IMG/VR virus record: IMGVR_UViG_3300025646_005482
Location: 1-64,000 of that record
Origin: a virus
Reading direction: 5' to 3' (one strand)
DNA length: 64,000 nt
Shown: piece by piece, positions 17,112-40,718 of the stretch
Layout of the letters: each line of letters begins with the position of its first letter
How positions within the stretch are numbered: the first letter of the stretch is position 1
Made by a program: the position numbers and the translations under genes
The notes under the pieces: model-generated
What the model was told of the DNA's origin: nothing
The model's input: only the letters and a program-made list of their open reading frames with translations
The model's database searches: none

Positions 17112-17897
17112 ATGGCAGATATAAGTGAAAATTTTAGAGTATTGACTCCATTCCCTAAACTAGTGGGCGAATATAGATTAAAATTTTCTGATGAGGAAGA
17201 AAAGACTATTGCAAAATGGACAGATGATGACTTCATTAGAACTAATAGTCTGAAGGCAGATGGCGGCCAAAACCTGGCAATGGTAGCTGATCCATATTCG
17301 AATCCAGAAATCAGAAAAAATCATGAAGTTTTCGATGATGATTTCTTAATTTGTTATGTAGGCATGAATCTCTTACAACAAGAAGAATGGGCTAGTATTG
17401 GAAGGGCTGTTGAAGAAGTAGCTCGTCATCATGTAATAGACACTTTAGGGTATAGCATTCCACCAGATTGTCACATGGGTGTATGTGATTCGTGGATGAT
17501 TAGAACAATAAACACCAATTCATATCCACAGCCGCTTCATCGAAAACACAATCACTCCTTTGCTTGGTTAACTGGAGTTTTGTATCTAGACGACAGTGAA
17601 AATGGCACGGCATTGGTGCGGTCCGACGCATTTGGCACCGAATATTTGCCATTCACTTGGGTAACTACTGAAAATGAATACAACACAGATCAGTATCTCA
17701 TTAAAGCAGAGAAGGGTAAAATAGTAATTTTTCCAGCTGGTATGCATCATATGATAATGAATAATGCAGATGGTACTAAACGACACACCGTGCCATTTAA
17801 CATCTTTCCATTTGGCAATGTTAACAATACTAACGCAGCTAGACTACAATATGATGGTCCACTCAACTTAACAGTAGATAGTGTAACAAGACAATGA
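17112..17897 (+). CDS. 2OG-Fe(II) oxygenase (TIGR02466-like)
   Basis: HNHS..LTGVLY, IVIFPAGMHH, R.TVPFN. Confidence 0.75.
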   Translation: MADISENFRVLTPFPKLVGEYRLKFSDEEEKTIAKWTDDDFIRTNSLKADGGQNLAMVADPYSNPEIRKNHEVFDDDFLICYVGMNLLQQEEWASIGRAVEEVARHHVIDTLGYSIPPDCHMGVCDSWMIRTINTNSYPQPLHRKHNHSFAWLTGVLYLDDSENGTALVRSDAFGTEYLPFTWVTTENEYNTDQYLIKAEKGKIVIFPAGMHHMIMNNADGTKRHTVPFNIFPFGNVNNTNAARLQYDGPLNLTVDSVTRQ

Positions 17898-18923: not shown

Positions 18924-20787
18924 ATGCGAGACGAAATTTTAGCCATCTACGAAAAGCACTCTTTCACTATCGGAGGCCAGTGGTTTTGTTCTTTCGATTC
19001 TGTGTACGATGATCTTCGTGATCTCTTTCCTCGTAAAAATCACGAGCAAGTCTGCGAACTGATGGAGCAATATCAACGATGAGTTATTGGAATTCTAACG
19101 GTACCTATCAATCACAGTACGAAGAGCTGTTCAAGCTTGTTCCTCGCGAAGGCGAAGTCAAGAAAGGTATGTGCAAGCATGTCTTCTCGCTCGAGCGTTT
19201 TCGTAAAGCATGCAACAGCTACTACGATGTGCACAATAACGGTGGTGGTAACCGCGATGCTGCAACCGCTCGCTTCTTTCCTGGTGCTCTCAGCGAGATT
19301 CGTAACTCGTGGAAGTATGGTGTGAGTATTAGATGGGACTACATTGATCGTATCTGTGAAGAGAAGATGGATGAGATCATTCGTGAAGCTTATATCAAAA
19401 ACATCGGAGACATTTCATAATGTGGGGTTTTGTGGTATTATTAGCAGTATGGATGACATACGTTGAGACTGAGATGCCCAATCGAGTCTCCGAATGTCAA
19501 TTTGATAACTCTTGTGAAATTTTAGAGGAAGAAGATAATGCATGATGCGATCATTTGGATGGTGACTTACGAAGGCCAATGGGATGGCAAGAAAGGTGAG
19601 TCGCCATATAAGTGGACAGCTCCGTCTGCGGGTGCAGCGATGGAGTTAGTCGAAGAATTGGAACAGCAATATCCAGATCGCAAGTGGAGAATCGAGGAGA
19701 AAGACGTATCATGAATACGAGTGATCTTATTCGACATATCTTGAGCAGTGTCGAACACATGTCTAAAGAAGCTGACGACCGTGCTGTCGATAACCCGTCT
19801 GCACACAACATTGGTGTGGCCGATGGTATCGATCAGGTACGCAATCTTCTTTTTGGTATTGATTATGAGTGGACAGAGATGATGTCCGCAAGGAGTGAAT
19901 ATGACTTATAGAGTAACAGTACATCACGAAGGAGTCGACAAAACTGGTCGACCTCTATCATCTGGTGACATCAACTGTATTGGTGGTGATGATACTCGTG
20001 TTTTCTTTGATAGAGCAGAGGCAGAATCTGCATTCGAATCTTTTTGGGCTACTTTTCGTGGTGGCAATCCACGAGCTGACAGCTCACAGATGAATTTTAC
20101 TAAAGTCAGCTTGTACCGATATGATGGTTTGAATGCTGATCAAACTGCTGAGTATACACTCATCCGTTTTGCTCAATCACAGGAGAGAATCAGTGTTGAA
20201 GTATGATGTAATGCCAGATCTTGCTTGTATTCCTATTGGTGGTACGAGCCTTCAAGGTCGTATTGAAATCTCTTATTATGAGTTGGTTCAAATATTAGGT
20301 GAACCTACAAGCTGTGAACCATCTGCGGATGATAAGATTCGTGTAGAGTGGGTCATCGAGTTCTATGATGAGATCGCAGACGATTATGCTATCGCTACCA
20401 TCTACGATTGGAAAGAAGACAAGCCTATCGAGTGGGTAACTGATTGGCACATCGGTGGTTTCAAGCCGAATGCAAACAGTTTCGTATATGAAATGGTGAG
20501 GGAGTTTAATGCCAAAAGGACGTAAAGCCGATCGAAAAATGGTCGAACCTACAAAGCCAAAGATGTTCGAACCTTCGGAACCCTATACTGTGCCTAAAAC
20601 CAAATTTAAAAAGGGAGGTGTGATTTACAAGGAGGGAGATAGGGTACATATATCAGATACTGATGGTGAATATGAAGGTAGGATAATGAATATTCTCTCA
20701 TCACAAATGGTAGTGAGACTCGATGAAGAAAATCCAAATAAAGATAGATTTTTCTTCACCACTGGAATGAAGATTAAAAAATGTTAG
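18924..20787 (+). other. run of small early hypothetical genes (about 18924-19082, 19079-19420, 19420-19544, 19538-19714, 19711-19911, 19895-20206, 20193-20525, 20509-20787)
   Basis: Tightly overlapping short ORFs, most with GGAG/AGGA SDs, downstream of an early promoter; no recognisable domains. Confidence 0.6.
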
Positions 20788-21332
20788 AGAAGCCACTCTT
20801 TCCCACAATGTTTTACGAAACACGGATCAATAAAGATCTGTGTTTCGCTATGCTTGATGAGATCAAATCAAAGCAACATATGATCGAGACTGTCAGTGAA
20901 GCAACACAAATTCAACCAATATCAGATTATTCCACTGACTTTAGTCATACTATTCGCATAGATCATTTTTGGGATCACGTAGTGCCACAACTACAAGATG
21001 AGTGGAAACAGTTGGGCAGAGAGATGATTAACATCCATCCATGGGTATCATGTTATACAGGTCCATCAGGTCATCATCCTTTACATAACCATTCTCAAGG
21101 CTATGACGCTAGATTGCATTATTCTGCAATCATCTATCTGACTGAAGTAGGCATGACTGACTTCTTTAGTACAGACGCCACGGCTCACACATCACAGCAC
21201 TGCGAGAAATCAGAAGTTGGTAAAGTAGTATACTTCCCTTCGATAGTGCCTCACCAGTATAGATCTGAACACTTTGATGGTAATGCACGATATACATTAC
21301 CTTTTAATTGTGAGCTTGTAAGTTTAACATAA
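20781..21332 (+). CDS. 2OG-Fe(II) oxygenase (TIGR02466-like)
   Basis: HPLHNH, YSAIIYL, VVYFPSIVPH, RYTLPFN. Confidence 0.75.
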   Translation: MLEKPLFPTMFYETRINKDLCFAMLDEIKSKQHMIETVSEATQIQPISDYSTDFSHTIRIDHFWDHVVPQLQDEWKQLGREMINIHPWVSCYTGPSGHHPLHNHSQGYDARLHYSAIIYLTEVGMTDFFSTDATAHTSQHCEKSEVGKVVYFPSIVPHQYRSEHFDGNARYTLPFNCELVSLT

Positions 21333-21358: not shown

Positions 21359-21400
21359 CGTAAATAATCCTGAGCAATACGCTCACAATCTCAGGAGATA
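21359..21400 (+). promoter_or_regulatory. late promoter-like TAAATA followed by an SD-sequestering hairpin
   Basis: CGTAAATA, then TCCTGAG (21368-74) pairing with CTCAGGA (21390-96) over the AGGAG SD. Confidence 0.5.
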
Positions 21401-21404
21401 ACTA

Positions 21405-24200
21405 ATGAAACATTTAGCATTAGTTCTTGCGTTTGTATTTTCGATGGGTGCCTTTGCGGATCATGTCGAATATGTCAGACAAGAACTACCACAATTAAAC
21501 GAAGAAATTTTAGCAGGTAGCGATTACCCCTACGAACTCAAAACAGTTCCCCTCTCTAACCTAATTCCCGTTCAGGTTGACCGAGTTCCTAATCTCAAGA
21601 AGCATGAGAAGAAACTCATCGAAGCACAACAAGATACCTATCGTCCATTAGTAGTGGATCACAGTTTTCACATTATCGATGGTCACCATCGGTATGATGC
21701 CCTCACTGAACTTGGTATCGAAAATGTAAGGGTATTCCACGTGCATGCAGATATTTCTGATGTTGTGGTTGCATTCGCCGATTATCAAGACGACACACCA
21801 ACCGTACCTGTTGGTTATCAAGAAGAAGTTGTCGTAGTTGGTACTTGGGCACAATTGAAAAATGCAGCAGATAGACAAGAGCAGTCAGATAATCTGATCA
21901 GCGTAGTTGATTCTGATGCGCTCGGTTCTTTTGCAGATACTACAGCAGCAGATGCAATCAGTCGTCTGAGTGGTATCAGCGTTGAGAATGATCAAGGTGA
22001 AGGTAGATATGTCACTATTCGCGGTCTCAGTTCTGATTTGAATAGTGTAGCAGTAAACGGTGCCTCTGTAGTTGCTCCTGAAAATGGACGCAGTGTCATC
22101 ATGGACGGACTCCCCACCGAGTTGCTTGATAGCATCGAAGTAGCAAAGACACTTACACCTGAGATGGATGCTGATAGCATCGGTGGGCGAGTCTCTTTTG
22201 AAACAAAGAAGCCCACCGACCTAGATGGTACATTCCTTAAAGTAAAAGTTTCAAGCAAGTTTGCTGACTATTCAGACTACAAGCAAGCACCAAACTTTTC
22301 AGTTACATACGGTGACAGGATAACAGATAACACTGCACATATTCTTGGTATCACATACTCAAATCGTTATATCAATTCATACAACAACGAGACTGGATTT
22401 GGTTGGGAAGATGGGTTGATGAATGATGATTGGGAAATGCGTTACTATGAAGTACAGCGTGAACGATATGGATTTAGTTACGATATCAACTCAGACATCA
22501 ATGATGACTTAATGGTCTATGCTGGTTTGTTCTATAACATGTACGATGAATCAGAAGTGCGATTGAAGAATGAATACGGCAAGATAAAAGAAGCAGGTGT
22601 GTTAGAGAATGGTATGATAACTTCTCGTATCAGACACGACGCTGAATCTCGAGTCAGATATGAAACGCGACATATCGGAGCATTCAACACTGGATTTGAA
22701 ACAATGGTTGGTGAATGGTTCATTGATGGTCAAATATCTTATTCATGGGCAGAGGAAGATGACAGTGACAATGCTGACATTACTTTCCGAAACTATGACA
22801 AAGATTTTGGTGGTGAGTTTAACTGGTCAAATCCACAGACTCCATACTTCACAGCATACGATGCTGGATTACGAGATCCTGCGAATCTAGAGTTTGATGC
22901 ATTTGAAATGTGGGAAAACGTCAGTAAAGATAACGAGATCAGCGTAGCATTTAATGCCGAAGCTCTCGTATTTGATAATGCATTGATGAAGACTGGTGTT
23001 AAATATCGTTCGCGAGAAAAACAAGTCGATGATTATATTATTGCATATCAGTGGGACAAAACTCTAGCAGACTTCAATTATTGGACTGCGCCTGGATGGA
23101 AGTTCGGTGATCAGACATTTGGTAATCATTTGACACCATCTGACACCTACGGTTTGCGCGATCTGGTTGATCAAATGGAAGTAGATTTTTCAGACGATCT
23201 TTCAAGAGACTTCACTACCAATGAAGATATCGCGGCTGCTTATGTCCAGTTTACCAACGAGTATGATTGGGGCGTGGTGATTATCGGCGCACGTTACGAA
23301 CACACTCAGTGGGACAGTCAAGCATATGACCAAGACGGCAATCGTGTCTACAGAGAAAAGTCATATGGATTCTTTGCTCCAAGTGCAACGATGAAATACT
23401 ACGTGACGAATGATATTCAGTTACGTGGTGCTATATGGACATCGCTGTCACGTCCTGGTTTCTCAGAGTCTGCTCCTAAAATGAATGTTGATTATGACTA
23501 CAGCGGTGACGTAAGTGGATCTGTCGGCAATCCTGAGTTAGACCCATACGAGGCAATCAACTTTGATCTCTCTCTTGAGTATTATTCTGATAACGCATAT
23601 GCCACTGTCGGAGTGTTTCGTAAAGAGATTTCTAATGCTATCTACCCTACGCTTCAAAAGACAGGCACTTTTAATGGTGTGACTTTTAACGATGGAGTGG
23701 AAACATATATCAATGCAGATGACTCTTGGATCAATGGACTTGAAGTTGCAGGTCAGTATGGTTGGGATAATGGTCTCTACGTTGCTGCTAATATTACCTT
23801 GACAGAAAGCGAGTCAAAGTTCAATTTCGACGGTGATGATGTGTTTACCACCGACTTTCGTAAACTTGCAGGAGAAGCAGCAAACCTGAGTGTTGGATAT
23901 AATAAGGCACCTTGGGATGTTCGCTTAGCAGTCAATCATCGTGGAGACTTTGTAGATTGGTTTGCTGATGAAGACGGAGATATTGGTTCATTGAATGAAA
24001 ACAATATTCGATATGTTGATGCACATACGCAGGTAGATCTAACAGTAAAGTATGATGTTACTGATAATCTTACATTGAGATTTAATGCAGTAAATCTAAA
24101 TGATGAGCCCGAATACTACTACTGGGGCAATTCTAACCAGTTATCACAGTATGATAAATTCGGTGTCTCTTACAATGTTGGATTTACTTATAGTTTGTAA
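21405..24200 (+). CDS. TonB-dependent outer-membrane receptor with an N-terminal ParB/Srx-like domain
   Basis: Signal peptide (..AFA-D); IIDGHHRYDAL at aa 90-100; TonB box EEVVVVG at aa 140-146; plug motifs GEGRYVTIRGL and IEVAKTLTPEMDADSIGG; barrel motifs GNPELDPY, NAVNLNDEP and terminal VGFTYSL. Confidence 0.92.
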   Translation: MKHLALVLAFVFSMGAFADHVEYVRQELPQLNEEILAGSDYPYELKTVPLSNLIPVQVDRVPNLKKHEKKLIEAQQDTYRPLVVDHSFHIIDGHHRYDALTELGIENVRVFHVHADISDVVVAFADYQDDTPTVPVGYQEEVVVVGTWAQLKNAADRQEQSDNLISVVDSDALGSFADTTAADAISRLSGISVENDQGEGRYVTIRGLSSDLNSVAVNGASVVAPENGRSVIMDGLPTELLDSIEVAKTLTPEMDADSIGGRVSFETKKPTDLDGTFLKVKVSSKFADYSDYKQAPNFSVTYGDRITDNTAHILGITYSNRYINSYNNETGFGWEDGLMNDDWEMRYYEVQRERYGFSYDINSDINDDLMVYAGLFYNMYDESEVRLKNEYGKIKEAGVLENGMITSRIRHDAESRVRYETRHIGAFNTGFETMVGEWFIDGQISYSWAEEDDSDNADITFRNYDKDFGGEFNWSNPQTPYFTAYDAGLRDPANLEFDAFEMWENVSKDNEISVAFNAEALVFDNALMKTGVKYRSREKQVDDYIIAYQWDKTLADFNYWTAPGWKFGDQTFGNHLTPSDTYGLRDLVDQMEVDFSDDLSRDFTTNEDIAAAYVQFTNEYDWGVVIIGARYEHTQWDSQAYDQDGNRVYREKSYGFFAPSATMKYYVTNDIQLRGAIWTSLSRPGFSESAPKMNVDYDYSGDVSGSVGNPELDPYEAINFDLSLEYYSDNAYATVGVFRKEISNAIYPTLQKTGTFNGVTFNDGVETYINADDSWINGLEVAGQYGWDNGLYVAANITLTESESKFNFDGDDVFTTDFRKLAGEAANLSVGYNKAPWDVRLAVNHRGDFVDWFADEDGDIGSLNENNIRYVDAHTQVDLTVKYDVTDNLTLRFNAVNLNDEPEYYYWGNSNQLSQYDKFGVSYNVGFTYSL

Positions 24201-24479
24201 CTATACTAACGCAACGCTTTGTACTTCACATACTAAATCTTTTGAGAGTCGTACGTGAGTACCTTTTTGTAATTTCCTACTGCGTACAGTAAATTCTGTC
24301 ACTTCGGCTGGCTGTATATTACAACTAGTAAGTACAGCCCAGTCGTTGCCTTTTTTGTCGGTCAGATGAATAGTATTGTCTGAAATACGAACAACTGGTT
24401 CGAGTGTTCTGGTAGGAATAATATCAGCATGTACAAATGCTGGTGAGAGTAGTAGAATGGCTACTAATAGATTTTTCAT
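24201..24479 (-). CDS. small exported protein
   Basis: Signal peptide MKNLLVAILLLSPAFVHA; GAAGGAG SD; two Cys. Confidence 0.7.
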   Translation of the reverse strand: MKNLLVAILLLSPAFVHADIIPTRTLEPVVRISDNTIHLTDKKGNDWAVLTSCNIQPAEVTEFTVRSRKLQKGTHVRLSKDLVCEVQSVALV

Positions 24480-25860: not shown

Positions 25861-28404
25861 ATGATGACAGACTTTTACACCAATGTTTCTCAGTACGGTA
25901 ACTATCTGTATGTTCGTGGTTTCAACGAGGATGGCTCGCGAATGCAGCGTCGGTTCGTATATGAACCCTACCTCTTTGTTCCATCTAACGTAGAGACTGG
26001 TTACACAGACATTCACGGTAACCATGTGCAGAAGAAGATGTTCGATAACATCAGACATGCACGTGATTACATCAAGAGATACGAGGAGGTCGAAGGATTC
26101 AATGTCTACGGCCTCGATCGTTATCCTTATGTATTTATATACGACACCTTTCGAAACCAAGAAGTTGACACGAGCAAGATCAATGTAGTCAACATCGACA
26201 TCGAGGTGGCATCAGACGATGGTTTCCCCGAACCTGAAGACGCTGACAAAGAAATCACAGCTATCGCTCTTCGTCGTCGTAATATGACAGTCGTACTCGG
26301 TTGTGGTGACTTCAAGTCAAACGACAAGAATGTGTACTACATCAAGTGCAAGCACGAATATCATTTGCTACATAAGTTTCTCGATGTGTGGCAAAACATG
26401 GATCCAGATGTTATCACTGGTTGGAACACAGAGTTCTTCGATATTCCGTACCTCGTCAATCGTATCACTAAAATCCACAGCGAAGAGATGGCACAACGTC
26501 TCTCACCGTGGGGTATCATCAAAGAAAAGCGTGTGTTCCGTCAAGGCAGTGACAAGCAATCACAGACATTCCAAATCTTCGGTGTGTCAAGCCTCGACTA
26601 TCTCGCCATCTACAAGAAGTTTCGACTACAACCTCGCGAATCGTACAAACTCGACTTCATTGCCGAGACAGAACTCGGTACCAAGAAGTTGGACTACAGC
26701 GAGTACGGTAACTTGCACGAGTTGTACAAGAACAACTTCCAAAAGTTTATCGAATACAACATTCGTGACACAGACCTCATCTTCGACTTAGAAGAAAAAC
26801 TCGGCTTCATCGAACAGATCTATGCGATTGCTTATGATGCAAAGGTCAATTACAACGACACTCTCGCCACTGTTGGTATCTGGGATGTGATCATCCACAA
26901 CTATCTGATGGATCAGAACAAGGTCGTATCGATGAAACGTCCACCTAAGTCCGATCGTATGATCGAAGGTGGTTACGTCAAAGAACCTATCGTTGGCATG
27001 CACAAGTGGGTAATGTCATTCGACCTCAACTCTCTGTATCCACACCTCATTCAGCAATACAACATCTCGCCTGACACTGTGATCAGCAAGACAGATGACC
27101 TGTTCACTATCACGAAGGATGCGAGTGTTGATACGGTACTCAACGAAGAACTCGACCTGACTGCGCTGAAACATTACAATGTGACCATGACACCGAACGG
27201 TAAGATATACCGTAAGGATTATCAAGGCTTCTTGCCTACTCTCATGGCCAAGATGTACGATGATCGTGTGTTGTACAAGAAGAAGATGTTCGAAGCGAAG
27301 TTGGCCAATCAGAAGAATCCATCACGTGAACTACAGATTGACATCAGTCGATACCATAACCTACAACACGCCAAAAAGATTCAGCTGAACGCAGCTTATG
27401 GTGCACTCGCCAACAAATACTTCCGATGGTTCGACAACGAGAATGCCGAGGCCATCACCATGGCTGGTCAGTTGTCTATTCGATGGATCGAGAAGAAACT
27501 CAATGTATGGATGAACAAGATACTCGAGACAAAAGGTCGTGACTACGTAGTCGCAATCGATACCGATTCGGTGTATGTCTCATTCGACAAGATGGTCGAG
27601 ATGACTAAACCAAAAGATCCTGTAGAATTCCTTGACAAGGTTGCAAAGCAACAAGTCGAAACATTCATCGATCGATCGTATCAAGAACTTGCCGACTACA
27701 CGAATGCATATGCACAGAAGATGATCATGAAACGTGAGAACATCGCTGACAAGGCCATCTGGACGGCCAAGAAGCGATACATCATGAATGTGTATGACTC
27801 CGAAGGTGTACGTTACGACGAGCCTGATCTCAAGATGATGGGCATCGAAGCCATTCGATCGTCAACTCCTGCGGTATGTCGCGAGTACATTAAGAAAACA
27901 CTCGAACTCATCATGTCTACAGACGAAGCCACTGTGCAGAAATACATCGCAGACATTCGTAAAGAATTTAGAACACTCAGCTTCGAAGAGGTTGCATTCC
28001 CTCGTAGTGTTAACTTTGTCAAGTGGGAAACTAACCACAAAACTGGTCAACGATTTCCTGGTACGTACGCCGATAAGGATACTATTTACAAAAAGGCTTC
28101 ACCGATTCAGGTCAAAGGTGGTCTGATATACAACCACTATTTGCATAAATATAACCTAACTAAAAAATACGAGGAAGTCAAAAGCGGTGAGAAGATCAAG
28201 TTCAGTTACTTGGTCAAACCGAATCCATTCAGAGATACTGTGATCTCATGTCCTGATGTATTACCACCCGAATTTGGCCTAGAAAATTATATTGACTATG
28301 ATACACAATTTGTCAAAGGCTATCTCGATCCAATCGAAATCATCTTACATGCTATCGGTTGGAAGTCTGAGAAAGTTGCAACACTTGAGGATTTCTTTGC
28401 ATGA
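25861..28404 (+). CDS. gp43: family B DNA polymerase
   Basis: ExoI DIEV, GWNTEFFDIPY, SFDLNSLYPH, KKIQLNAAYG, AIDTDS, KKRY; C-terminal clamp motif LEDFF. Confidence 0.98.
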   Translation: MMTDFYTNVSQYGNYLYVRGFNEDGSRMQRRFVYEPYLFVPSNVETGYTDIHGNHVQKKMFDNIRHARDYIKRYEEVEGFNVYGLDRYPYVFIYDTFRNQEVDTSKINVVNIDIEVASDDGFPEPEDADKEITAIALRRRNMTVVLGCGDFKSNDKNVYYIKCKHEYHLLHKFLDVWQNMDPDVITGWNTEFFDIPYLVNRITKIHSEEMAQRLSPWGIIKEKRVFRQGSDKQSQTFQIFGVSSLDYLAIYKKFRLQPRESYKLDFIAETELGTKKLDYSEYGNLHELYKNNFQKFIEYNIRDTDLIFDLEEKLGFIEQIYAIAYDAKVNYNDTLATVGIWDVIIHNYLMDQNKVVSMKRPPKSDRMIEGGYVKEPIVGMHKWVMSFDLNSLYPHLIQQYNISPDTVISKTDDLFTITKDASVDTVLNEELDLTALKHYNVTMTPNGKIYRKDYQGFLPTLMAKMYDDRVLYKKKMFEAKLANQKNPSRELQIDISRYHNLQHAKKIQLNAAYGALANKYFRWFDNENAEAITMAGQLSIRWIEKKLNVWMNKILETKGRDYVVAIDTDSVYVSFDKMVEMTKPKDPVEFLDKVAKQQVETFIDRSYQELADYTNAYAQKMIMKRENIADKAIWTAKKRYIMNVYDSEGVRYDEPDLKMMGIEAIRSSTPAVCREYIKKTLELIMSTDEATVQKYIADIRKEFRTLSFEEVAFPRSVNFVKWETNHKTGQRFPGTYADKDTIYKKASPIQVKGGLIYNHYLHKYNLTKKYEEVKSGEKIKFSYLVKPNPFRDTVISCPDVLPPEFGLENYIDYDTQFVKGYLDPIEIILHAIGWKSEKVATLEDFFA
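26132..26139 (-). promoter_or_regulatory. antisense late promoter inside gp43, probably driving the lysozyme
   Basis: Perfect TATAAATA on the minus strand about 300 nt upstream of the lysozyme ATG. Confidence 0.5.
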
Positions 28405-29006
28405 ATTTTCCACTTGAAATTGAAAATTTTATTACCGAAGAAGAATGTAAAATTTTATTAGAATTTTCTCAAAAGACCGATCGTTGGTGGGAAAATAATG
28501 ACGAACGATGGAATCTGAGAAATATTTACTTATTTCAAATGCACGATGAAGATGGTCAATTCTTTGATGAAGAATACCAAAATGCATATTGGACAAAAGT
28601 GAATGTATGGGGTAGAGTCGAAGATTGGATCAGATCTTTTGATGGTCACTGTCAATTAGAAGCACCACAATTTACCAGATGGTTTCCTGGTGATTCTATT
28701 GATCCACCTCATGCAGATAATTGTGAACCAGATGGAACAGCAAATTATTCACCACATAGAGACTATGGATTCGTAATATATCTAAACGATGATTTTGAAG
28801 GCGGTGAATTATTTTATGCTGATCCTAATAATGGAATAGTTAAACCGAAAGCGCGTAGTCTTTGTGCACACACCGCTGGAATGGAAAATCAACACGGAGT
28901 AAAAATTTTAAAAAGTGGTATGAGATATACTACTGTTTCATTTGGAACAAGAAACGAAGGTTGGATAAAAGAAAATTACGGGAGTTTACTTCATGGATAC
29001 AGATAA
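28401..29006 (+). CDS. 2OG-Fe(II) oxygenase (prolyl 4-hydroxylase-like)
   Basis: PHADN (HxD), IYLNDDFEGGEL, HGV...G.RYT. Confidence 0.85.
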   Translation: MNFPLEIENFITEEECKILLEFSQKTDRWWENNDERWNLRNIYLFQMHDEDGQFFDEEYQNAYWTKVNVWGRVEDWIRSFDGHCQLEAPQFTRWFPGDSIDPPHADNCEPDGTANYSPHRDYGFVIYLNDDFEGGELFYADPNNGIVKPKARSLCAHTAGMENQHGVKILKSGMRYTTVSFGTRNEGWIKENYGSLLHGYR

Positions 29007-40147: not shown

Positions 40148-40323
40148 CTATATTACTTCTATTAAGTGGTTGTGCGCTCCGGCCGCCTGACGACTGGGGC
40201 ATTTCTATTGAGGATATGGAAGGAATGGGAAATCCTACTATCGATGAGTGTCAAATCACTTTCGGTGGTGAGGTTCCTATGGTTCCTTGTGTGATTGAGT
40301 TAGAATTGGAATGGGAAATTTAA
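40132..40323 (+). CDS. small putative lipoprotein
   Basis: LLLLSG-C lipobox. Confidence 0.5.
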   Translation: MVARLAILLLLSGCALRPPDDWGISIEDMEGMGNPTIDECQITFGGEVPMVPCVIELELEWEI

Positions 40324-40718
40324 AGAATTTTATTGGCGACACAATAACACACGCCGAAAAAGGAATATTATTGTTTGTCGTATTCGGCACTATATGGGCT
40401 GCTGGTTTCGACATATTAGGTATGTTCCAACAACAAGGCAAGATGGCACTCGGTGATCTCTTCTTGCTATTCATCTACGCAGAGATTCTTGGCATGGTTG
40501 CGGCATTCTATAAGAGTGAGCGCATACCAGTATCACTGCCTCTCATCATTGCCATGACTGCGCTGACGCGTATGATCATACTACAGACGAAAGGCAATGA
40601 ACCACTCAACATCATCTATGAGTCTGCTGGCATTCTTATTCTTGCAGCTGCAGCGTATATCATGACGAAGAAAGATTACATCTCTTTGAAGAAAGGCGAT
40701 CTACGTGAGAGTCATTGA
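40311..40718 (+). CDS. psiE: phosphate-starvation-inducible PsiE family membrane protein
   Basis: LGDLFLLFIYAEILGMV..FYKS.RIPV..PLIIAMTALTRMII; four TM segments. Confidence 0.85.
   Translation: MGNLKNFIGDTITHAEKGILLFVVFGTIWAAGFDILGMFQQQGKMALGDLFLLFIYAEILGMVAAFYKSERIPVSLPLIIAMTALTRMIILQTKGNEPLNIIYESAGILILAAAAYIMTKKDYISLKKGDLRESH

What the first reader, a model, noticed from the sequence alone, without database searches (positions are those of the whole stretch)
21405..24200. Phage TonB-dependent receptor carrying a periplasmic ParB/Sulfiredoxin-like domain
Seen in sequence: a signal peptide, then about 110 aa containing RQELPQL...LIPVQ...RPLVVD..HIIDGHHRYDAL (the ParB/Srx signature), then a TonB box (EEVVVVG, aa 140-146) and a complete plug and barrel. 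Established: N-terminal TBDR extensions are normally STN signalling or carboxypeptidase-like domains, while ParB/Srx domains are cytoplasmic NTPases or nucleases. Inference: this is an unusual fusion. It may couple outer-membrane import to periplasmic hydrolysis or sensing of a nucleotide or organophosphate, or it may remodel the host surface (superinfection exclusion). Pho-box-like repeats nearby and psiE elsewhere hint at phosphorus scavenging.
Basis: partly seen in the sequence, partly recalled or inferred. Interest (0 to 1): 0.75.

Follow-up and report, generated by a model that had tools for sequence, protein, structure and literature searches.

The report
Phage nutrient receptor with periplasmic ParB-like domain
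An uncultured T4-like marine phage carries a complete outer-membrane TonB-dependent importer, copied from the phytate-uptake type of its likely gammaproteobacterial hosts, onto which a ParB/sulfiredoxin-fold domain has been grafted on the periplasmic side, an arrangement not described for this transporter class.

Summary
ORF 21405-24200 (+) encodes a 931-aa protein: signal peptide, ~105-aa domain, short linker, TonB box (EEVVVVG, aa 140-146), plug and barrel (TIGR01782, 435 bits).

The N-terminal domain has a true ParB/Srx fold. Pfam alone is below threshold, but a family profile hits the pNOB8 ParB-N domain at E 3.5e-7, and the pLDDT-94 model matches ParB-N, sulfiredoxin, Noc and ParB.

It is not a chimera. 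Over 20 independently assembled metagenomic contigs share the junction, and the domain is as conserved as the barrel.

New findings:
- The barrel belongs to an orthogroup of SAR92/Porticoccaceae and SAR86 receptors. These run from the signal peptide straight into the TonB box and almost always sit beside a beta-propeller phytase. The phage copies have no phytase nearby.
- Split forms exist: a secreted stand-alone domain gene directly upstream of a receptor with its own signal peptide.
- One bacterial MAG carries both a fused and a split form, so the module is rare but not phage-exclusive.

Best reading (about 0.45): a phosphorus-scavenging auxiliary importer with a tethered periplasmic module that binds or hydrolyses phosphate esters. 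The biochemistry is untested. I class it as a new variant of a known kind. The Pho-box hint was not supported; psiE is present.

The parts
21405..24200 (+). Whole gene: 931-aa TonB-dependent receptor with an N-terminal ParB/Srx-fold extension
   Evidence: ORF list and translation. TIGR01782 scores 435.5 bits. Full-length AlphaFold model has pLDDT 79.9.
21405..21458 (+). Sec-type signal peptide (aa 1-18, ending AFA before D19)
   Evidence: Read from the sequence. The equivalent hydrophobic leader is present in all 14 fused relatives but is poorly conserved (39% mean identity), as expected for a signal peptide.
21462..21779 (+). ParB/Srx-fold domain (aa ~20-125) with invariant R25, LPQL 28-31, PVQ 55-57, R60, YRPLV 79-83, D85, IDGHHR 91-96 and D98
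   Evidence: Family profile against solved structures: pNOB8 ParB-N E 3.5e-7, with GHHR aligned to GYTR of ParB-N and GVHR of SbnI. Model pLDDT 94.1. Foldseek hits to ParB-N, Srx, Noc and ParB. Invariant residues.
21780..21821 (+). Flexible linker (aa 126-139)
   Evidence: 48% mean identity among relatives. Block-mean pLDDT is 47 for aa 131-140, and aa 136-146 fall below 50 in the full-length model.
21822..21842 (+). TonB box EEVVVVG (aa 140-146)
   Evidence: Start of the TIGR01782 match. Aligns with IEEVVVVG in the bacterial homologues, where it directly follows the signal peptide. E141, V144 and G146 are invariant. Predicted disordered.
21885..22187 (+). Plug domain (aa 161-261)
   Evidence: PF07715, E 2e-13. 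This is the most conserved region of the family, at 82% mean identity.
22215..24197 (+). Beta-barrel (aa ~271-931)
   Evidence: PF00593 E 3.9e-31 and PF14905. The full-length model shows a continuous series of long beta-strands.

Best explanation
The gene is a phage auxiliary outer-membrane importer. Its plug and barrel descend from the receptor that marine gammaproteobacteria (SAR92/Porticoccaceae, SAR86 and relatives) encode immediately upstream of a beta-propeller phytase, so the likely cargo is phytate or a similar phosphate-rich organic compound. In the phage lineage a ParB/Srx-fold domain has been placed in the periplasm between the signal-peptide cleavage site and the TonB box. That domain comes from a subfamily otherwise found in signal-less proteins from phage-like contigs, often fused to nucleotide-metabolism enzymes. 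The proposed mechanism has four steps. First, the infected cell exports the protein and inserts it into the outer membrane. Second, host TonB engages the conserved TonB box and drives import. Third, the tethered domain, which keeps the phosphate-binding motifs of its superfamily (PxQxxR and GHHR), captures or hydrolyses the phosphorylated cargo as it leaves the barrel. Fourth, this stands in for the missing phytase partner and feeds phosphorus to phage DNA synthesis. Shown here: the architecture, the fold, the orthology to phytase-linked receptors, conservation of the TonB box and domain motifs, and the existence of split and fused forms. Inferred: the cargo, any binding or catalysis by the domain, and the benefit to the phage.
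For: Architecture and fold. Orthology: the phage and closest bacterial clade is sister to the Porticoccaceae/SAR92 receptors with 99-100% ultrafast bootstrap support. Bacterial relatives begin with a signal peptide followed directly by the TonB box. About 57 of the bacterial loci carry a beta-propeller phytase within ~100-200 nt downstream, and many have PPK2 upstream. Adjacency of a receptor gene to a phytase gene has been used before to predict phytate as the substrate (PMC3400609). Functional coupling of domain and receptor (Rosetta-stone evidence): L113 and L114 encode a secreted 134-aa domain protein 10 nt upstream of a receptor that has its own signal peptide. L071 shows the same arrangement, and its parts are 76% and 87% identical to the fused L007 gene. 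Selection: the domain is as conserved as the barrel (64% against 65% mean identity), with all motif residues invariant and the TonB box conserved. Wider subfamily: it is fused to 5'-nucleotidase (NT5C), kinases and cytidylyltransferase-like domains, which points to nucleotide or phosphate ligands. Phage context: psiE and phoH are present. A bacterial chromosomal copy argues for a physiological role rather than a purely phage-conflict role.
Against: No biochemical evidence exists for any member of this domain subfamily. No phytase is adjacent in the phage loci, in the closest bacterial clade or in the split forms, and none is present in this phage, so the cargo may have changed. The periplasm lacks NTPs, so the known ParB/Srx chemistries (CTPase, ATP- or ADP-dependent phosphotransfer) cannot simply be transferred. 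The domain is acidic overall (pI 5.5). No Pho box lies upstream. The unfused L095 is nested within the fused clade (96% support), so the domain is dispensable in some lineages.
Confidence: 0.45

Rival explanations
1. Regulatory or coupling extension. The domain acts like the STN signalling domain of FecA-type transducers or the N-terminal extension of SusC. It would contact an inner-membrane or periplasmic partner, or modulate TonB access to the adjacent TonB box, rather than handling cargo.
For: The position is topologically identical to STN extensions, directly before a flexible TonB box. FoxA and FecA-type extensions are the known precedent (PMC11658791). FecR-domain genes occur in related phage loci.
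Against: No STN or anti-sigma/ECF sigma gene lies beside the gene. The FecR-domain genes travel with the CsgF/CsgG cluster even where no receptor is present. Invariant polar residues at the superfamily's ligand-binding motifs look like an active or ligand site, not a protein-docking surface. The stand-alone secreted form does not fit a tethered signalling lever.
Confidence: 0.2
2. Conflict function. The receptor remodels the infected cell surface, or the periplasmic ParB-like domain acts as a nuclease that destroys DNA injected by competing phages (superinfection exclusion).
For: Several ParB-like domains are nucleases by annotation, and PHROG families hit include 'ParB-like partition nuclease' and 'nuclease'. 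A nuclease needs no NTP and so could work in the periplasm. Relatives of the domain sit in multi-domain proteins on phage-like contigs.
Against: The same module sits in a bacterial chromosome beside housekeeping genes. The TonB box, plug and barrel are conserved as in working importers. None of the loci examined shows a link to known exclusion genes.
Confidence: 0.15
3. Artefact: an assembly chimera at the domain/receptor junction, or a bacterial fragment wrongly joined to a phage contig.
For: The record is a metagenome assembly, and read coverage could not be inspected here.
Against: The same junction is present in 14 protein clusters from ENA, JGI and Logan assemblies, in 12 IMG/VR contigs including ones of 169,742 and 77,735 bp, and in loci with phage gene content. 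The reading frame is continuous, GC is uniform, and phage genes flank both sides.
Confidence: 0.02

Closest known systems
Phytase-linked TonB-dependent receptors of marine Gammaproteobacteria (TIGR01782 'TonB-Xanth-Caul' class; the receptor/beta-propeller phytase gene pair)
   Same: Plug and barrel are 55-65% identical. The TonB box motif is the same. They form sister clades with 99-100% support.
   Different: The bacterial proteins have no N-terminal domain and are followed by a phytase. The phage protein has the ParB/Srx domain and no phytase neighbour.
TonB-dependent transducers with an N-terminal STN signalling domain (FecA, FoxA, FpvA)
   Same: A globular periplasmic domain lies between the signal peptide and the TonB box, on a flexible linker (PMC11658791).
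   Different: The fold is unrelated: no STN hit and a ParB/Srx fold instead. No sigma/anti-sigma pair is adjacent.
ParB/Srx superfamily: pNOB8 ParB-N domain, SbnI, free serine kinase, sulfiredoxin, ParB/Noc CTPase domains
   Same: Same fold. The GxxR motif is present as GHHR, aligned to GYTR of ParB-N and GVHR of SbnI. A PxQxxR motif resembles ParB box I; that resemblance is from my own knowledge.
   Different: This domain is exported to the periplasm, while all the solved relatives are, to my knowledge, cytoplasmic. It has no HTH or dimerisation domain, no box III, and no cysteine at all, so it cannot be a sulfiredoxin.
Phage-encoded TonB-dependent receptors in megaphages (Mar_Mega_1 SusC-like; Lak phages)
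   Same: A complete receptor gene in a phage genome, interpreted as an auxiliary uptake gene (PMC9723777; bioRxiv 10.64898/2026.10.24.761521).
   Different: Those are Bacteroidota SusC-type receptors in very large phages. No ParB/Srx extension is mentioned in the passages retrieved from those papers, and sequence similarity to LR745206 is only partial (24% coverage).

Membership tests
TonB-dependent receptor (TIGR01782 subfamily) | Whole-protein score above the curated cut-off | tested here: met
   435.5 bits against a cut-off of 310, covering aa 140-930.
TonB-dependent receptor (TIGR01782 subfamily) | Signal peptide, TonB box, plug domain and beta-barrel in that order | tested here: met
   Sequence. 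Plug PF07715 and barrel PF00593. The TonB box aligns with those of the bacterial homologues. Full-length model.
TonB-dependent receptor (TIGR01782 subfamily) | TonB-dependent transport of a substrate | not testable with these tools
   Needs uptake assays in a tonB+ and tonB- host.
Phytase-linked receptor cassette | Orthology to receptors that sit next to a beta-propeller phytase | tested here: met
   Sister-clade relation with 99-100% support. Phytase lies downstream of the receptor in about 57 bacterial loci.
Phytase-linked receptor cassette | Beta-propeller phytase gene adjacent to the receptor | tested here: not met
   No phytase hit in the window or in any phage locus. No PF02333 match in the 160-kb phage record.
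ParB/Srx superfamily | ParB/Srx fold | tested here: met
   Model pLDDT 94.1. Foldseek top hits are 5k5d ParB-N, 1xw4 Srx, 7ng0 Noc and 7bm8 ParB, each at probability 1.00.
ParB/Srx superfamily | Conserved GxxR phosphate-binding motif after the central strand | tested here: met
   DGHHR is invariant in the 14 fused proteins, and H77 and R78 are invariant across 30 subfamily members. It aligns to the equivalent motif of ParB-N and SbnI.
ParB/Srx superfamily | Pfam model above the gathering score | tested here: not met
   ParBc_2 scores 20.5 bits against 23.6. Membership rests on the profile and fold evidence instead.
ParB CTPase clamp (ParB, Noc, KorB) | Box III (ENLQR) plus HTH DNA-binding and dimerisation domains | tested here: not met
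   The domain ends about 30 residues after GHHR and runs straight into the TonB box. No HTH or ParB C-terminal domain was hit.
Sulfiredoxin | Catalytic cysteine in the GCHR motif | tested here: not met
   The whole protein contains no cysteine.
TonB-dependent transducer (FecA type) | STN domain and neighbouring anti-sigma/ECF sigma genes | tested here: not met
   No STN hit at E up to 1. The neighbours are a 2OG oxygenase-like gene, an orphan secreted ORF, HSP20 and a lysozyme.

The most novel reading that the evidence does not exclude
The exported ParB/Srx domain is a new kind of periplasmic phosphohydrolase, acting on phytate, nucleotides or polyphosphate without NTP. It functionally replaces the beta-propeller phytase partner, giving phages of abundant marine heterotrophs a self-contained 'import and release phosphate' device.
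Probability: 0.2. Interest if true: 0.85.

Novelty: new variant of a known kind. Interest (0 to 1): 0.66.

Why it matters
N-terminal extensions of TonB-dependent receptors are known as signalling (STN) or SusC-type domains. A ParB/Srx-fold domain in that position, and in the periplasm at all, is undescribed as far as I could find. The fused, split and bare forms in one well-resolved gene family form a natural experiment on what a periplasmic partner adds to an outer-membrane importer. The link to the phytase cassette makes a concrete idea testable: that phages of SAR92/OM60-type heterotrophs boost organic-phosphorus uptake during infection, extending the pstS/phoA auxiliary-gene theme beyond cyanophages. 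It also opens a large subfamily of ParB-like domains, found mostly in phage-like proteins and with no known function, to biochemical study.

Tried and rejected
- Megablast of the gene against 50,697 phage records found nothing. tblastn found only weak SusC-like hits in unannotated gut 'Bacteriophage sp.' contigs and the megaphage LR745206.
- Pfam alone could not place the N-terminal domain, because ParBc_2 scored below its cut-off. A family profile and a structure model were needed.
- An E. coli-type Pho-box scan of the window gave 7 hits against 9.75 expected, none upstream of the gene. The sigma-70 and terminator scan was no better than shuffled sequence.
- No phytase, PPK2 or PstS was found in the phage record.
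- There is no second copy of the domain in the phage.
- The sulfatase-family gene next to the receptor in L001 has no signal peptide and only weak family scores, so I did not count it as a partner.
- The 92-aa secreted ORF abutting the gene has no homologue in any related locus.
- P0018 is not on record for a context look-up.
- P0023 sits on a 1.2-kb contig beside an unrelated flavoprotein gene, which is uninformative.
- Deep branching inside the fused clade is unresolved (33-61% support). I therefore do not claim a direction of transfer between phage and bacterium, or a number of gains and losses.
Full report
**1. The observation**

The window holds a 931-aa ORF at 21405..24200 (+) with no internal stops. 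These are a Sec-type leader ending AFA|D, then RQELPQL, LIPVQ, RPLVVD and IIDGHHRYDAL, and then EEVVVVG at residues 140-146.

Pfam finds a Plug domain (161-261) and the TonB-dependent receptor barrel (451-898). NCBIfam TIGR01782 ('TonB-Xanth-Caul') matches residues 140-930 at 435.5 bits, against a cut-off of 310.

The window is the first 64 kb of a 160,330-bp IMG/VR virus record estimated to be 89% complete. Around the gene lie a family-B DNA polymerase whose nearest nucleotide matches are T4-like cyanophage polymerases, a phage lysozyme, HSP20, 2OG-Fe(II) oxygenases, a DnaB-like helicase and NrdA. GC content is uniform across the gene. The gene is therefore a long-resident part of a T4-like phage genome.

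**2. Is the N-terminal domain really ParB/Srx?**

On Pfam alone the answer is no: ParBc_2 scores 20.5 bits, below its 23.6 cut-off.

An exhaustive phmmer search of residues 19-140 against 1.84 billion representatives found 166 relatives. They share three motifs: R..(L/M)PQ(L/I), PxQxxR, and P(L/I)(I/V)VD....I(V/I)(D/N)GHHRYDA.

A profile of 30 short members hits the solved pNOB8-like ParB-N domain at E 3.5e-7. It also hits SbnI (9e-5), free serine kinase (2e-4) and sulfiredoxin (0.05). GHHR aligns to GYTR of ParB-N and GVHR of SbnI.

The AlphaFold model built on that alignment is very confident (pLDDT 94.1, pTM 0.86). Foldseek returns ParB-N, human sulfiredoxin, Noc, ParB, PadC and free serine kinase, all at probability about 1. 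The fold assignment is therefore sound.

The domain is not a sulfiredoxin, because the protein has no cysteine. It is not a ParB clamp either, having no box III, HTH or dimerisation domain.

**3. Not a chimera, and under selection**

Searching residues 1-145 among proteins of similar length in 5.8 billion clusters returned 14 full-length receptors with the same N-terminus. They come from ENA, JGI and Logan assemblies. IMG/VR holds 12 more contigs whose match starts at residue 1-18, including contigs of 169,742 and 77,735 bp. The loci inspected have phage-type gene content.

Mean pairwise identity across 14 fused proteins:

| Region | Mean identity |
|---|---|
| N-terminal domain | 64% |
| Barrel | 65% |
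| TonB box and plug | 82% |
| Linker | 48% |
| Signal peptide | 39% |

All motif residues of the domain, and E141, V144 and G146 of the TonB box, are invariant.

The full-length model (pLDDT 79.9) shows a confident N-terminal domain and a confident barrel. Residues 136-146, which include the TonB box, are disordered, as expected for a flexible TonB box.

**4. Where the barrel comes from**

A scan of one genome per prokaryotic species returned 120 bacterial relatives, and 80 loci were kept:

| Group | Identity to the phage barrel |
|---|---|
| Aequoribacter and 'Pseudomonadales' MAGs | 62-65% |
| SAR92/Porticoccaceae | 55-59% |
| SAR86 | 38-48% |

In each bacterial locus I translated, the protein runs from the signal peptide straight into the TonB box; L007 was the only exception.

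In about 57 of these loci a beta-propeller phytase gene lies 100-200 nt downstream. PPK2 often lies upstream. This is the receptor/phytase pairing from which phytate has been predicted as the substrate (PMC3400609).

In an IQ-TREE analysis the fused proteins and their closest bacterial clade are sister to the Porticoccaceae/SAR92 phytase-linked receptors, with 99-100% support.

Several sets of loci lack a phytase: the phage loci, that closest bacterial clade and the split forms. This phage has no phytase at all. It does have psiE (40311-40718) and phoH.

**5. Fused, split and bare forms**

- Two independent contigs (L113, L114) encode a secreted 134-aa stand-alone copy of the domain. Ten nucleotides later comes a receptor with its own signal peptide. 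That receptor branches outside the fused clade.
- One bacterial MAG (JAYQVM01) has a fused gene (L007) beside glyA-nrdR-ribD-ribE-ribBA and an ABC-F gene, which is an ordinary chromosomal setting.
- The same MAG has a second, split pair on a short contig (L071). Its parts are 76% and 87% identical to the fused gene.
- Sixty relatives of that MAG lack the domain.
- An unfused IMG/VR receptor (L095) is nested inside the fused clade (96% support), and another (L096) is sister to it.

The domain and the receptor are therefore a recurring functional pair that has been joined and separated more than once. The pair is rare, but it is not restricted to phages. Deep branches are unresolved (33-61% support), so I make no claim about the direction of transfer.

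**6. Where the domain comes from**

Outside the receptor lineage, the members whose N-termini I read generally lack signal peptides, and those whose contigs I inspected lie in phage-like sequence. Of 100 longer members scanned:
- 16 are fused to Cu/Zn superoxide dismutase;
- 16 are fused to a 5'-deoxynucleotidase (NT5C);
- others are fused to P-loop kinases or cytidylyltransferase-like domains.

A signal-less 117-aa copy sits in T5-like marine phage contigs. PHROG hits are all ParB-like or nuclease families. This phage has only the one copy. Export to the periplasm is thus a derived feature of the receptor-linked lineage.

**7. How it most likely works**

Shown:
- The protein is a complete importer that should be TonB-competent.
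- It belongs to the phytase-linked orthogroup.
- A conserved ParB/Srx domain is held in the periplasm next to the TonB box.
- The domain's superfamily-typical phosphate-binding motifs are invariant.
- Gene-fusion and gene-fission evidence shows that the domain and the receptor work together.

Inferred:
- The cargo is a phosphate-rich organic compound, phytate being the best candidate.
- The domain binds or hydrolyses that cargo in the periplasm, compensating for the absent phytase.
- The phage gains phosphorus for replication.

I put this reading at about 0.45. The alternatives are:
- a regulatory or TonB-coupling extension analogous to STN (0.2);
- a conflict role such as a periplasmic nuclease or surface remodelling (0.15);
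- an artefact (0.02).

The remainder is unassigned. The bacterial chromosomal copy and the conserved TonB box weigh against a purely conflict role. The stand-alone secreted form weighs against a tethered signalling lever.

**8. Comparison with what is known, and verdict**

Phage-borne TonB-dependent receptors have been reported in megaphages: a SusC-like gene in Mar_Mega_1 (PMC9723777) and in Lak phages (bioRxiv 10.64898/2026.10.24.761521). The receptor in a phage is therefore not new in itself.

Three things are new:
- the ParB/Srx extension;
- its fused and split genetics;
- the identification of the barrel as the phytase-cassette receptor.

I class the finding as a new variant of a known kind, with interest 0.66.

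Noticed in passing
window 40311-40718 (+): A psiE (phosphate-starvation-inducible protein) homologue, PF06146 at 72.5 bits. phoH lies outside the window, at 68063-68674 of the same record.
   Followed up: partly
window 24201-24479 (-): An orphan 92-aa ORF with a clear signal peptide. It converges tail-to-tail on the receptor gene with no spacer. It has no Pfam hit and no homologue in any related phage or bacterial locus.
   Followed up: partly
window 21369-21397: A 6-bp inverted repeat (CCTGAG ... CTCAGG) whose 3' arm overlaps the Shine-Dalgarno sequence of the receptor gene. It may be a translational control hairpin. I did not test its conservation.
   Followed up: no
L003 5332-9609; L116 8166-10354: Related marine phage contigs, both T4-like and T5-like, carry a CsgF-CsgG cluster with a FecR-domain gene. 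The T4-like locus L003 also has a curlin-repeat-like gene. Other envelope genes (Phage_OMP, Gcw_chp) are nearby. L003 also has heme oxygenase and a PebS-like bilin reductase.
   Followed up: no
L003 13727-15784; L113 3164-5008: A CHASE2-guanylate/adenylate cyclase gene lies close to the receptor in two different phage-like contigs.
   Followed up: no
proteins P0051, P0052, P0059, P0061, P0065 and others: Sixteen of 100 relatives of the ParB-like domain are fused to a Cu/Zn superoxide dismutase domain without a signal peptide. Another 16 are fused to an NT5C 5'-nucleotidase. These are unexplained multi-domain proteins, apparently from phage-like sequences.
   Followed up: partly
L071 1-438 (-): Upstream of the bacterial split pair is an ORF with PAP2-type phosphatase motifs (KxxxxxxRP, PSGH, SRxxxxxH). 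I read these by eye and did not test them with a profile.
   Followed up: no
L001 12855-14129 (+): A sulfatase/alkaline-phosphatase-superfamily gene lies 56 nt downstream of the fused receptor in one phage. It has no signal peptide and a CSVSR variant of the formylglycine motif.
   Followed up: partly
window 17112-17897, 20781-21332, 28401-29006: Three 2OG-Fe(II) oxygenase-like genes flank the receptor region: PF13759 twice (one weak) and PF13640.
   Followed up: no
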